The notes beneath the pieces were generated by a model. The model did not search any database, was not told the origin of the DNA, and saw only the letters and a program-made list of their open reading frames with translations. From Escherichia phage BF17: 64,000 bases of DNA. The stretch is taken from sequence record MW822008.1; one strand, given 5' to 3'. How positions within the stretch are numbered: the first letter of the stretch is position 1; each line of letters starts with the position of its first letter. Of this stretch, positions 8,081 through 11,805 are shown in pieces. The translations under genes and the position numbers were made by a program.

Positions 8081-8084
8081 AAAT

Positions 8085-8170
<86 letters not shown>

Positions 8171-8187: not shown

Positions 8188-8348
<161 letters not shown>

Positions 8349-8352
<4 letters not shown>

Positions 8353-8509
8353 CACATGAAGAATGGATGAATGACATTAATTTTAGATATTCGGGTATCG
8401 GTAAATGGCTAAAGTATCATTGGGAATTCATTTCAGAGCCACATCTGTATGATAAACTTATCAACGATCCAGCATATGAAATGTACTTAATTGAACTACT
8501 GGTACGAAT

Positions 8510-8513
<4 letters not shown>
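8349..8513 (+). CDS. small protein, MTH-x-EW family, tandem copy 2 (54 aa)
   Basis: Near-identical 5' half to copy 1; ATGA overlaps at both ends. Confidence 0.5.
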
Positions 8514-8681
<168 letters not shown>

Positions 8682-9164: not shown

Positions 9165-9404
9165 ATGGGTAAGTATTTTGTGAGTTATAGTTATAATGTA
9201 TCACGAAAGATTCCACGTGGTGACGGAATGGGATGGTCTTATGATGCATATACTTTAAATGAGTCATGTATCATCGAATTACAAGAAAAAGACCTTGACA
9301 TTTTAAAAATCAAACAATATATTCTTGATGTTGAATTGGCACATCGTACTGATACCTATCCAGATGTAAACAACATCAGCATCTTAGTACTAACCAAAGT
9401 ATAA
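9165..9404 (+). CDS. hypothetical protein
   Basis: ORF track 9135-9404 trimmed to ATG 9165 after GAAGG RBS. Confidence 0.55.
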   Translation: MGKYFVSYSYNVSRKIPRGDGMGWSYDAYTLNESCIIELQEKDLDILKIKQYILDVELAHRTDTYPDVNNISILVLTKV

Positions 9405-9482
9405 GATAAAAAGAACTTTACTAAATAATTCCACTGGAGATTAATATGTTTAAAGATGAACGTCCAGATTTGTAAAAAGTAC

Positions 9483-9511
9483 TTGAATAAATAATTCAGT
9501 ACTGATATAAT
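9483..9511 (+). promoter_or_regulatory. promoter TTGAAT-N17-TGaTATAAT
   Basis: Extended -10; drives transcription into ORF-poor segment 9518-9870. Confidence 0.5.
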
Positions 9512-9875
9512 GAATTCCACAATCAGACGTATATGGTGTAAGTTACGTCGATGTAATCCAGAACAAGATCTCTGGTACTCTAGGAAGTGGTGAATGTTAA
9601 CCTAGACGGGTTTGATAATTGGACGATAGGCAATTATTACTTGACTAGCAGGTTTAAACTAGAGGTGACCGTCCTTCACCAAACTGGAAAACCGGATGGA
9701 CTTTTATTTAAAAGGGTAAGGCGTGGAAATATGTTTACAGAAGTTGCTTTTAGTAGCCTGTACGCCCCACGTCAAGGTAGTCGAAAGGTAAGTTAAAACG
9801 GGTGGTTATAAAGCTGAATTAACAGCGGCGTTTAAAAGCGTCACCATCCATTTTTTTTTAATTAAAGTTGGTGAT

Positions 9876-10685
<810 letters not shown>

Positions 10686-10904: not shown

Positions 10905-11435
<531 letters not shown>

Positions 11436-11480
11436 GATTCCCGATTCAGTAGCTTATAAAGCAGTTCCGTGTGTGCCTAT

Positions 11481-11533
<53 letters not shown>

Positions 11534-11534
11534 T

Positions 11535-11572
<38 letters not shown>

Positions 11573-11591
11573 AGAGGTACTTCGAGTATGC

Positions 11592-11658
<67 letters not shown>

Positions 11659-11805
11659 TAATTGACATATCATTGAATGGGGTGTATTATGGTTCAAGAA
11701 GAAAACTGGGGTTTTTAACCTAACGAGGTCATTATGAAAGTAAGTAAAGAAACTGCCAAACAGCTTGAAGTACTTTGTAGTGCTGCACCTATGCCGACAC
11801 TTGGC

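What the first reader, a model, noticed from the sequence alone, without database searches (positions are those of the whole stretch)
9483..9870. ORF-poor, GC-richer ~350-nt segment downstream of a strong promoter within the tRNA region: candidate small stable RNA
A good TTGAAT-N17-TGaTATAAT promoter (9483-9511) leads into 9518-9870, which has no convincing RBS-led ORF (the 69-aa GTG-start ORF at 9587 is doubtful), looks GC-richer than its surroundings, and ends in a T9 run (9852-9860). Coliphage T4 encodes small stable RNAs of unknown function within its tRNA cluster; this could be an analogous ncRNA.
Basis: inference. Interest (0 to 1): 0.4.

Follow-up and report, generated by a model that had tools for sequence, protein, structure and literature searches.

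The report
Two structured RNA genes beside phage tRNAs
This stretch of a giant E. coli phage encodes no protein but two small, tightly folded RNAs; one belongs to a previously uncatalogued RNA family that has spread between unrelated phages and always sits among their tRNA genes, and its function is unknown.

Summary
A family-type phage promoter (9483-9511) leads into a GC-enriched, ORF-poor stretch that ends in a T9 run (9851-9859).

It is not one RNA but two independent modules.

**Module A (about 9513-9705, 190 nt)** has seven helices plus an H-type pseudoknot.
- In 18 homologues, 91.7% of cells are paired, against 25-41% in slid controls.
- 32 of 45 pairs show compensatory changes.
- It recurs in Asteriusvirus, Alcyoneusvirus, Bragavirus (T4-like), Novosibvirus (T5-like), Ishigurovirus, Stephanstirmvirinae and metagenomic phage contigs.
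- It is always co-oriented with tRNA genes and usually abuts them.

**Module B (about 9716-9850)** is a covarying hairpin domain followed by a three-way-junction and U-run terminator module. In RaK2-like phages that terminator module also follows tRNA genes.

Close relatives carry A only, B only, or neither, so both are accessory.

The 69-aa ORF is broken in relatives. Nothing matches in Rfam 15, tmRNA, T4 rnaC/rnaD or E. coli genomes.

Best reading: tRNA-style expressed stable ncRNAs, functional analogues but not homologues of T4 RNA C/D. Their function is unknown. My favoured guess, not tested, is a protein-binding or decoy role in tRNA-centred host-phage conflict.

The parts
9483..9511 (+). 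Sigma-70-type promoter (-35 TTGAAT 9483-9488; extended -10 TGATATAAT 9503-9511), a member of the phage's own promoter family
   Evidence: The same 29-nt signature occurs at 10244-10272 before tRNA-Ser. Similar promoters precede module A in L045, G17, EJP2 and L061.
9513..9705 (+). Module A: structured ncRNA of about 190 nt, with seven helices and a pseudoknot. The transcription start is inferred at about 9517-9521. The 3' end is not mapped.
   Evidence: CM R1 scores 225 bits here. Covariation is shown. There are 18 homologues, all in phage tRNA regions.
9522..9552 (+). Helix H1 (AUC(A)GACGUA / UACGUCGAU). Its loop usually carries a GGYG motif, seen by eye in the homologues that were inspected.
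   Evidence: All 8 modelled pairs show compensatory changes, although only 82% of cells are paired in the divergent members.
9558..9575 (+). Helix H2 (CCAGA/UCUGG), variable in length among homologues
   Evidence: It is replaced by other hairpins in SdyM006, Proteus phage 1, KP13-16 and L010.
9579..9606 (+). Helix H3 (UCUAGG/CCUAGA) with an invariant GU in the loop (9587-9588)
   Evidence: 6 of 6 pairs are compensatory and 96% of cells are paired.
9607..9613 (+). Conserved single-stranded junction. CGGG (9607-9610) is near-invariant; the following bases, UUU here, vary.
   Evidence: Present in at least 17 of 18 sequences.
9614..9638 (+). Helix H4 (GAUAAUUG/CAAUUAUU) with conserved loop GACGAUARG
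   Evidence: 7 of 7 pairs are compensatory. Loop positions A9623, G9625, A9626 and G9630 are invariant.
9639..9662 (+). H-type pseudoknot. Helix H5 is ACUUG/CAGGU. Its loop CUAG (9645-9648) pairs with the downstream CUAG (9659-9662). The A-rich linker is UUUAAA.
   Evidence: The H5 pairs switch AU to CG and CG to AU. The pseudoknot pair is AU in 14 sequences and GC in 4, and is never broken.
9664..9680 (+). Helix H6 (GGUGA/UCACC) with 7-nt loop CNNYCCU
   Evidence: 100% of cells are paired. One pair occurs as GC in 10, UA in 5, AU in 1 and CG in 1 sequence.
9684..9700 (+). Helix H7 (CUGG-AAAA-CCGG) and conserved tail AUGGR
9701..9714 (+). A/U-only hairpin or spacer between modules A and B. There is no promoter here, so B is inferred to be co-transcribed with A in this phage.
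   Evidence: Sequence. In RaK2, L066 and L061 a promoter is inserted at this point.
9716..9778 (+). Module B, domain B5a: long hairpin (P1 GGCGUGG/CCACGUC, P2 UACAG/CUGUA, P3 GUUGCU/AGUAGC)
   Evidence: 97% of cells are paired, against 27-45% when slid. Four pairs are compensatory, including against Kuravirus copies.
9780..9789 (+). Module B, domain B5b: small GAAA-capped hairpin
   Evidence: GU to GC and CG to UG changes keep the pairing.
9800..9849 (+). Module B, domain B3: three-way junction. P1 is GGGUGGU/ACCAUCC, Pa is GCUG/CAGC and Pb is GGCGUU/AGCGUC. The junction and Pa loop are invariant (UAUAAA; AAUURA).
   Evidence: 95.6% of cells are paired across 8 copies and paralogues. Six pairs are compensatory, which 37 of 500 shuffles also reached. 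Copies also follow tRNA-Ser, tRNA-Arg and the B' RNA in RaK2-like phages.
9851..9859 (+). U9 tract directly after the B3 closing stem. Inferred to be the end of the transcription unit (intrinsic-terminator-like).
   Evidence: U/A-rich tracts follow every B3 copy. The simple terminator scan did not call it, because the stem encloses a branched structure.

Best explanation
Window 9483-9859 is one transcription unit. It makes two independent, non-coding, highly structured small RNAs from a strong promoter of the phage's own family type.

**Module A (about 190 nt)** belongs to a phage-specific RNA family not present in Rfam 15.
- It has seven helices, an H-type pseudoknot and about two dozen invariant unpaired nucleotides.
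- The family behaves like a passenger of tRNA arrays. In T4-like, T5-like and other phages it lies between two tRNA genes, with spacers of 0-20 nt.
- Its ends are therefore presumably made by the tRNA-processing enzymes: RNase P at the 5' end of the next tRNA, and trailer cleavage after the CCA of the preceding one (inferred).
- It should then accumulate as a stable RNA.

**Module B (about 135 nt)** is a conserved hairpin domain followed by a three-way-junction and U-tract module. That module serves as the common 3' end or terminator of small-RNA and tRNA units in the RaK2/121Q group of jumbo phages.

Both modules are dispensable accessory cassettes that move horizontally.

**Shown:** non-coding nature, structure, distribution, modularity, and accessory status.

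**Inferred:** expression, processing and stability.

**Function** is a committed guess at about 0.3, with no direct evidence here. Module A would act in trans as a protein-binding scaffold or decoy in the tRNA- and translation-centred conflict between phage and host. Examples would be titrating a tRNA-directed host nuclease or an RNA-processing or repair factor. The role would parallel that now known for some phage tRNAs.

The confidence of 0.8 applies to the identity claim (two structured non-coding RNA genes expressed in the manner of tRNA-cluster stable RNAs), not to the functional guess.
For: **Non-coding.**
- The 69-aa frame has a stop in RaK2 and L066, is frameshifted in L061, and is cut off where module A ends in PM2 and Proteus phage 1. 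Many homologues have no start codon.
- There is no Pfam hit and only a marginal PHROGs hit.

**Structure of A.**
- RNAalifold finds 18 of 30 pairs compensatory.
- For my structure on the MAFFT alignment, 91.8% of cells are paired against 23-39% when slid, and 24 pairs are compensatory; no shuffle in 500 reached either value.
- On the 18-sequence CM alignment, 91.7% are paired and 32 of 45 pairs are compensatory. The pseudoknot pair is AU in 14 sequences and GC in 4.

**Distribution and context.**
- 85-92% identity to gaps between tRNA genes in Bragavirus and Novosibvirus phages. Weaker matches occur in Ishigurovirus and Stephanstirmvirinae.
- Metagenomic and IMG/VR members also abut tRNAs.
- None of the 76 pattern-selected GTDB genome loci is a real member, and E. 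coli genomes give no match.

**Modularity and accessory status.**
- EJP2 has A only, followed by tRNA-Ser. JNE01 has the promoter followed by B only. G17 keeps the promoter plus 38 nt of A.
- In L061, A and B lie about 370 nt apart and each has its own promoter.

**Structure of B.**

**Promoter family.**

**Precedents.**
- T4 RNA C and RNA D are transcribed from the tRNA region and their roles are unknown (PMC3014915).
- GOLLD and ROOL are encoded in phages, often near tRNA islands, and their function is unknown (PMC12286853).
- Phage tRNAs neutralise PARIS and a retron toxin (PMC11464382).
Against: - There is no expression data for this phage or any homologue, so the transcription start, the 3' ends and the stability are all inferred.
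- Single-sequence folding energy is not significant (z = -1.3).
- Many A homologues are 85-98% identical. The effective number of sequences is small (2.39 in the CM), and most covariation comes from about 8 divergent lineages.
- The B alignments are shallow, with 6-8 sequences. For B3, 37 of 500 shuffles reached the observed number of compensatory pairs.
- Nothing in the data points to a specific partner or target. The decoy or protein-binding function is argued from context only.
- The U tract after B3 was not called by the simple terminator scan.
Confidence: 0.8

Rival explanations
1. The segment encodes one or two small proteins: the 69-aa GTG ORF at 9587-9796 and/or the 27-aa ORF at 9510-9593, which is annotated as gp129 in phage 121Q.
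For: ORFs exist on the + strand. Several GenBank records annotate hypothetical proteins here. Part of the frame (NLDG.DNWTI.NYYLTSR.KLEVT) stays open in several homologues.
Against: The frame has an internal stop in RaK2 and L066 and a frameshift in L061. In Bragavirus and Novosibvirus it ends where the element meets the next tRNA. The ATG of the 27-aa ORF is absent there. Substitutions are paired across helices rather than following codon positions. No Shine-Dalgarno sequence precedes the GTG, and there is no protein-family support.
Confidence: 0.03
2. Module A is a self-cleaving or otherwise catalytic RNA that helps to release neighbouring tRNAs or itself from array transcripts.
For: It has a compact pseudoknotted fold with many invariant unpaired nucleotides. 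It sits between tRNAs with very short spacers. Several small ribozyme classes are phage-associated (general knowledge).
Against: No Rfam ribozyme family matches, even at E up to 10. tRNA arrays are processed without such elements. In the jumbo phages the RNA has its own promoter and no adjacent tRNA, so cis-processing has no obvious purpose there.
Confidence: 0.08
3. The RNAs are base-pairing riboregulators (sRNAs) that target host or phage mRNAs.
For: They are small, promoter-driven and terminator-ended. Conserved loop sequences could serve as seed regions.
Against: There is no blastn-detectable complementarity to E. coli genomes, although that search cannot see short seeds. The family spans hosts from Escherichia and Proteus to Aeromonas with the same invariant loops, which is unusual for mRNA-specific seeds. 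The fold is far more elaborate than typical Hfq-type sRNAs.
Confidence: 0.12
4. The conservation reflects a DNA-level or purely cis-acting element: a homing-endonuclease target or recombination hotspot, a transcription insulator or terminator, or a decayed tRNA or tmRNA remnant.
For: Seg-type endonuclease genes sit in tRNA regions, for example segB in T4 and a segD-like gene next to the element in SdyM006. The B3 module does look like a terminator cassette. The window also holds a degenerate tRNA-like gene at 8084-8165.
Against: Compensatory base changes in 32 of 45 pairs show selection at the RNA level. ARAGORN and the Rfam tRNA and tmRNA models find nothing here. Alignment to E. coli ssrA is no better than shuffled controls. 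Module A lacks a T-arm or acceptor-like end.
Confidence: 0.07

Closest known systems
Phage T4 small stable RNAs: RNA C (species 1, rnaC) and RNA D (species 2, rnaD)
   Same: They are non-tRNA RNAs of about 120-140 nt, encoded inside the tRNA gene cluster on the same strand and directly abutting a tRNA. They are transcribed from the tRNA region and their biological roles are unknown (PMC3014915). The Bragavirus copies of module A occupy the equivalent kind of slot, between tRNA-Gly and tRNA-Asp.
   Different: There is no sequence or structural homology. The alignment is meaningless, and CM R1 finds nothing in the T4 tRNA region at E up to 1. By eye, T4 RNA C ends in a tRNA-like T-arm. Module A has none and instead has a pseudoknot core.
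GOLLD and ROOL RNAs (Rfam RF01998, RF03087)
   Same: They are elaborately structured, pseudoknotted RNAs of unknown function, encoded in phages and prophages, often near tRNA islands (PMC12286853).
   Different: They are 500-800+ nt and form homo-oligomeric cages. Module A is 190 nt. Neither Rfam model matches.
Phage-encoded tRNAs acting as counter-defence (T5 tRNA-Lys against PARIS; T5 tRNA-Tyr against retron Eco7 PtuAB)
   Same: They come from the same genomic compartment, are expressed in the same way and are accessory. They show that RNAs from phage tRNA arrays can neutralise host immunity (PMC11464382).
   Different: Those are genuine tRNAs that replace cleaved host tRNAs. Module A is not a tRNA, and no link to any defence system has been shown.
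Abundant ncRNAs of the related jumbo phage PA5oct (ncRNA001, ncRNA002)
   Same: PA5oct is a relative of the 121Q and RaK2 group. It expresses ORF-less RNAs of 236 and 451 nt, each at up to about 5% of phage reads (PMC7318152).
   Different: They are not homologous: CM R1 finds nothing in the PA5oct region that holds ncRNA001 and ncRNA002. No tRNA gene is annotated in that region.
tmRNA (SsrA)
   Same: The whole A+B unit is of similar size. Both have H-type pseudoknots, and short shared words such as GACGGGAUUUG and GACGAAAA made it a lead.
   Different: ARAGORN and Rfam are negative. Local alignment to E. coli ssrA is no better than shuffles; 456 of 500 shuffles scored at least as high. There is no tRNA-like domain and no conserved tag frame.

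Membership tests
T4 rnaC / rnaD stable RNAs | Sequence or structure homology to T4 RNA C or RNA D | tested here: not met
   MAFFT alignment shows no real similarity. CM R1 gives no match in the T4 tRNA region L004.
T4 rnaC / rnaD stable RNAs | Non-tRNA gene embedded in a phage tRNA cluster, on the same strand and abutting tRNAs | tested here: met
   In this window the nearest tRNAs are 570 nt downstream and 1.4 kb upstream.
T4 rnaC / rnaD stable RNAs | Accumulates as a discrete, metabolically stable RNA during infection | not testable with these tools
   No RNA-seq or northern data are available for any carrier phage.
tRNA | Cloverleaf recognised by ARAGORN or Rfam RF00005 | tested here: not met
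   Searches find nothing within 9483-9870.
tmRNA | tRNA-like domain plus tag reading frame; match to RF00023 or an ARAGORN call | tested here: not met
   Searches are negative. The ssrA alignment is not above shuffles. No conserved frame exists.
GOLLD / ROOL / other Rfam 15 families (4227 models) | Covariance-model match at gathering score, or any credible E-value | tested here: not met
   The gathering scan of the window finds only tRNAs. The E-value scan of 9300-10000 gives only two chance-level hits, E = 4 and 9.9. Five homologous loci give only tRNA-clan hits and a few sub-threshold chance matches, none over the A or B homologues.
Intrinsic (Rho-independent) terminator (for B3 plus U9) | Stable G+C-containing stem immediately followed by a U tract | tested here: inconclusive
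   The 7-bp stem GGGUGGU/ACCAUCC is followed, after one A, by U9. However, the stem closes a three-way junction and the simple scan did not call it. Its recurrence at the 3' end of tRNA and RNA units in RaK2-like phages supports a 3'-end role.
Small protein gene | ORF conserved in homologues with start codon, ribosome-binding site and codon-type substitution pattern | tested here: not met

The most novel reading that the evidence does not exclude
Module A is the founding member of a new functional class: a horizontally mobile, pseudoknotted RNA cassette that travels with phage tRNA arrays. It would act as an RNA-based counter-defence or host-takeover factor, for example by binding tRNAs or by decoying a tRNA-directed nuclease or an RNA-repair or processing enzyme. 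If so, it would also give the first functional handle on the fifty-year-old question of what non-tRNA stable RNAs in phage tRNA clusters (T4 RNA C and D) are for.
Probability: 0.2. Interest if true: 0.8.

Novelty: new member of a known kind. Interest (0 to 1): 0.55.

Why it matters
Non-tRNA stable RNAs in phage tRNA clusters have been known since the 1970s (T4 RNA C and D) without any assigned function. GOLLD and ROOL show the same unexplained attraction to tRNA islands.

Module A adds a compact, well-defined family with unusually favourable properties for experiments:
- It occurs in cultivable E. coli, Klebsiella, Proteus, Shigella and Aeromonas phages of at least six lineages.
- Its 85-92% identity across unrelated phage families points to recent horizontal spread, and presumably to selection.
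- Natural near-isogenic variants exist with A only (EJP2), B only (JNE01) or neither (G17).

This makes the question of what these RNAs do directly testable.

The practical result is that these intergenic stretches are mis-annotated as hypothetical proteins or left blank in dozens of GenBank records. They could instead be annotated with a covariance model.

Tried and rejected
- **Rfam.** The gathering and permissive scans of the window and of five homologous loci found only tRNA-clan hits and chance-level matches.
- **Single-sequence folding.** Not significant on either strand.
- **T4 rnaC/rnaD homology.** Rejected.
- **tmRNA lead.** Shared words such as GACGGGAUUUG and GACGAAAA prompted the check. 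It was rejected by a shuffle test against E. coli ssrA and by the lack of a conserved tag frame.
- **Host mimicry or long antisense.** No blastn match in 5,426 E. coli genomes.
- **PA5oct ncRNA001/002 as homologues.** Rejected.
- **Loose pattern scans.** CM and nhmmer filtering recovered 8 real metagenomic loci, two of them identical, and none in GTDB genomes.
- **Pattern scans for module B in IMG/VR.** They returned only 121Q and RaK2.
- **Query with the L061 region.** It was swamped by tRNA-Arg hits, and the extra 'C' RNA of L061 had no relatives.
- **Ideas checked by eye and dropped:**
  - A T-box or RNase P-like UGGN:NCCA interaction of the GGYG loops with tRNA 3' ends: the U is not conserved in the Aeromonas and L010 copies.
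  - An anticodon-like reading of the H6 loop: GUC appears only in some copies.
  - A 5'/3' closing stem: not conserved.
  - Mimicry of the sarcin-ricin loop or the 16S 3' end: no significant similarity.
- **Literature searches.** No description of this RNA was found. The library is incomplete, so an earlier description cannot be excluded.

Full report
**What the window is.** The region is 96-98% identical to Asteriusvirus jumbo coliphages (121Q, PBECO4, slurp01) and about 81% identical to the Klebsiella RaK2 group. It lies in their tRNA region. ARAGORN and Rfam find six tRNAs between 7991 and 12077, all on the + strand.

**Checking the observation.**
- The promoter TTGAAT-N17-TATAAT, with an upstream TG, is at 9483-9511.
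- It shares a 29-nt signature with the promoter directly in front of tRNA-Ser at 10244-10272. It also resembles the promoters that precede the same RNA in relatives. So it belongs to the phage's own promoter family and is not a chance hexamer match.
- GC content of 9518-9850 is 0.417. The flanking genes are 0.29-0.31 and the window as a whole is 0.349. The segment is in the top 2.6% of equal-sized windows.
- The T run is T9 at 9851-9859.
- Only a 27-aa and a 69-aa ORF lie on the + strand.
Folding of the single sequence is not significant on either strand, and Rfam 15 finds nothing, even at E up to 10.

**The segment is two modules.** BLAST against phage genomes splits it in two.

*Module A (about 9513-9705):*
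- It is 85-92% identical to unannotated gaps in T4-like Bragavirus phages (PM2, Pm5461, Mm5, SdyM006) and in T5-like Novosibvirus phages (Proteus phage 1 and 2).
- It matches more weakly in Aeromonas Ishigurovirus phages (65, avDM6, ZPAH1) and in Klebsiella KP13-16 (Stephanstirmvirinae).

*Module B (about 9716-9850):*
- It is confined to the 121Q and RaK2 group.
- The exception is its first hairpin, which recurs in Kuravirus podophages.

*Independence within Asteriusvirus:*
- EJP2 has the promoter, then A, then tRNA-Ser directly, with no B.
- JNE01 has the promoter followed directly by B, with no A.
- G17 keeps only the promoter and the first 38 nt of A.

*Promoters in other relatives:*
- In the metagenomic relative L061, four units each have their own copy of the promoter: A, a further unrelated structured RNA, tRNA-Arg, and B.
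- RaK2 has a TTGAAC-N17-TATAAT promoter inserted between A and B.

A and B are therefore separate, dispensable cassettes. In this window no promoter separates them, so B is probably co-transcribed with A (inference).

**Genomic context of module A.** In every locus examined, the element is on the same strand as the tRNA genes and usually touches them.

| Phage or locus | Position of A |
|---|---|
| PM2, SdyM006 | between tRNA-Gly and tRNA-Asp, with gaps of 0-3 nt on the 5' side and about 10 nt on the 3' side |
| Proteus phage 1 | between tRNA-Leu and tRNA-Ser |
| Mm5 | immediately before tRNA-Glu (ARAGORN shows the GenBank tRNA strands are wrong there) |
| KP13-16 | after tRNA-Leu |
| avDM6, ZPAH1 | after tRNA-Pro |
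| L099, L118 (metagenomic) | immediately before tRNA-Asn |
| L026 / L284 | immediately after tRNA-Leu |
| RaK2 | after an unannotated tRNA-Gly and another small RNA |

- None of the 76 GTDB genome loci that matched the core pattern is a real member.
- E. coli genomes have no match.
- As far as sampled, the family is phage-specific.

**Module A does not code for protein.**
- The 69-aa frame carries a stop in RaK2 and L066.
- It is frameshifted in L061.
- It is cut off by the next tRNA in Bragavirus and Novosibvirus.
- Most homologues lack a start codon.
- There is no Pfam hit and only a marginal PHROGs hit.

**Structure of module A.**

*Covariation support:*
- A MAFFT alignment of 16 sequences was folded with RNAalifold. 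It gave 30 pairs, of which 18 had compensatory changes.
- My refined model has seven helices plus a pseudoknot. On the same alignment it gives 91.8% paired cells, against 23-39% for slid controls. It has 24 compensatory pairs, and no shuffle in 500 reached that.
- A covariance model, R1, recovered all members and two more distant ones, L118 at 43 bits and L026 at 23.5 bits.
- On that 18-sequence alignment, 91.7% of cells pair and 32 of 45 pairs have compensatory changes.

*The core of the fold:*
- Helix H5 is ACUUG/CAGGU. Its loop CUAG pairs with a downstream CUAG across an A-rich linker, forming an H-type pseudoknot.
- The pseudoknot pair is A-U in 14 sequences and G-C in 4 (KP13-16, L099, L118, L026). 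It is never broken.

*Invariant unpaired nucleotides:*
- GU in loop 3.
- CGGG in the junction before H4.
- A.GA...G in loop 4.
- The A residues of the pseudoknot loops.
- C...C.U in the 7-nt loop of H6.
- AU.G in the 3' tail.

So many invariant unpaired nucleotides suggest a tertiary fold or a specific recognition surface (inference).

*Caveats:*
- The CM alignment is fitted to the structure.
- Many sequences are near-identical.
- The signal comes from about eight divergent lineages.

**Structure of module B.**
- B5a is a long hairpin: 97% of cells paired against 27-45% when slid, with four compensatory pairs, three of them in the comparison with Kuravirus copies.
- B5b is a GAAA-capped hairpin.
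- B3 is a three-way junction. Its 7-bp closing stem is followed by the U9 tract.
- Eight copies and paralogues of B3 keep the junction and loop sequences invariant while the stems covary. 95.6% of cells are paired and six pairs are compensatory, though 37 of 500 shuffles reached that count.
- In RaK2-like phages, B3 also follows tRNA-Ser, tRNA-Arg and another small RNA, each time before the next promoter.
- I therefore read B3 as the common terminator or 3'-end module of these small-RNA units. This is inferred; the simple terminator scan does not call it.

**How it most likely works.**

*Shown:* two non-coding, structure-constrained, accessory and horizontally mobile RNA cassettes sit behind a family-type promoter.

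*Inferred:*
- Transcription starts near 9517-9521 and ends at the U9 tract.
- In array-embedded copies, the ends of A are produced by the tRNA maturation enzymes.
- The RNA accumulates as T4 RNA C and D do.

*Function:* not established. My committed guess is a trans-acting protein-binding scaffold or decoy in tRNA- or translation-centred host-phage conflict, at about 0.3. The reasons are:
1. The strict association with tRNA arrays.
2. The pattern of accessory status and horizontal transfer, which is typical of counter-defence genes.
3. The elaborate fold with invariant loops that stay the same across hosts from Escherichia to Aeromonas. This argues against mRNA-specific seeds.
4. The precedent that phage tRNAs neutralise PARIS and a retron toxin (PMC11464382).

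*Rivals:* catalytic RNA (0.08), base-pairing sRNA (0.12), a DNA-level or cis-only element or decayed tRNA/tmRNA (0.07), and small protein (0.03).

**Comparison with what is known.**
- The closest analogues are T4 RNA C and RNA D. They occupy the same genomic niche and their roles are unknown (PMC3014915). There is no homology.
- GOLLD and ROOL share the association with tRNA islands and the unknown function (PMC12286853). They are much larger, and their models do not match.
- The related jumbo phage PA5oct expresses abundant ncRNAs (PMC7318152), but they are not homologous.
- A tmRNA lead was tested and rejected.
- I found no description of this family in Rfam 15 or in the searchable literature. 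That library is incomplete.

**Verdict.**
- It is a new RNA family, plus a second lineage-restricted one, within a known but unexplained kind: non-tRNA stable RNAs of phage tRNA clusters.
- Interest is moderate to good (0.55). The existence of such RNAs is not surprising, but this family is unusually widespread, well supported by covariation, and experimentally tractable thanks to natural presence/absence variants.

Noticed in passing
window 8084-8165 (+): Directly after tRNA-Ser(UGA) lies a tRNA-like gene that neither ARAGORN nor Rfam calls. It has a 7-bp acceptor stem, a CUUCUAA anticodon loop (UCU, Arg), a T-arm and an encoded CCA. It lacks the D-arm and carries a long extra arm. It is identical in 121Q, where it is annotated as tRNA-Leu(taa). 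G17 and L045 have a canonical tRNA-Arg(UCU) at this position.
   Followed up: partly
window 11395-11660 (+): A second ORF-poor, GC-richer stretch (about 0.38) upstream of the two tRNA-Thr genes. It ends in a hairpin plus U7 (GGAUAUUGUUGCAACAGUAUCC...UUUUUUU). Folding z-score is -2.3. It may be another small RNA gene.
   Followed up: partly
window 8188-8674 (+): Three tandem, overlapping 54-aa ORFs (8188-8352, 8349-8513, 8510-8674). The two that were translated both begin MTHEEWM, so this is a small tandem gene family. 121Q annotates three 165-nt CDSs at the same place.
   Followed up: no
L002 (RaK2) 2758-2995: An unannotated tRNA-Gly(UCC) at 2758-2833 is followed by a further small RNA, here called B'. 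B' has a different 5' domain but the same B3 three-way-junction 3' module, and runs straight into module A. RaK2's GenBank record annotates none of these.
   Followed up: partly
L061 (metagenome contig JACCDR011713278.1), minus strand, about 570-780: Between module A and tRNA-Arg lies another promoter-driven RNA of about 165 nt. It has a long closing stem (AUCAACGGUGAGUAACAUUG...CAAUGUUACUCACCAUUGAU). No relative was found in the phage collection.
   Followed up: partly
L009 (Kuravirus XT18) about 1150-1780; L281 (phage 1-6af) about 555-1190: A roughly 650-nt unannotated, GC-rich, hairpin-dense gap. It contains the B5a-like hairpin and ends in a tRNA-like T-arm (GUAGGUUCGAAUCCUAC) plus ACCUGUA-A-CCA. 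Its apparent 5' acceptor partner UACAGGU lies about 140 nt upstream. This may be a large tRNA-linked ncRNA or an interrupted tRNA. Rfam finds nothing there.
   Followed up: partly
L006 (Klebsiella phage KP13-16) 1614-1680, 656-731 and 296-351: Between module A and tRNA-Ser there is a short element with a T-arm-like GAGUUCGAAUCUC and an ACCA end. Elsewhere in the same array, a 76-nt stretch gives a sub-threshold tmRNA-model hit (31.6 bits) and another gives a weak YrlA hit.
   Followed up: no
L212 (Morganella phage vB_Mm5, PP397179.1): The GenBank record places the tRNA genes on the strand opposite to the one found by ARAGORN. This is an annotation error.
   Followed up: yes
L026 / L284 (Ga0308161_1000008, 866 kb; IMG/VR contig of 259 kb): The most distant module A-like hit (23.5 bits) sits after tRNA-Leu in a very large viral contig. 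That contig also carries a CUA-anticodon (amber suppressor, 'Pyl') tRNA, which hints at a recoded huge phage.
   Followed up: no
L005 (Aeromonas phage 65) 1118-1443 compared with L210 (avDM6): In phage 65, two small predicted CDSs are inserted between tRNA-Pro and module A. The junction sequence CCAAATTAGCAC recurs almost exactly at the distal end of the insertion. In avDM6, A follows tRNA-Pro directly.
   Followed up: no
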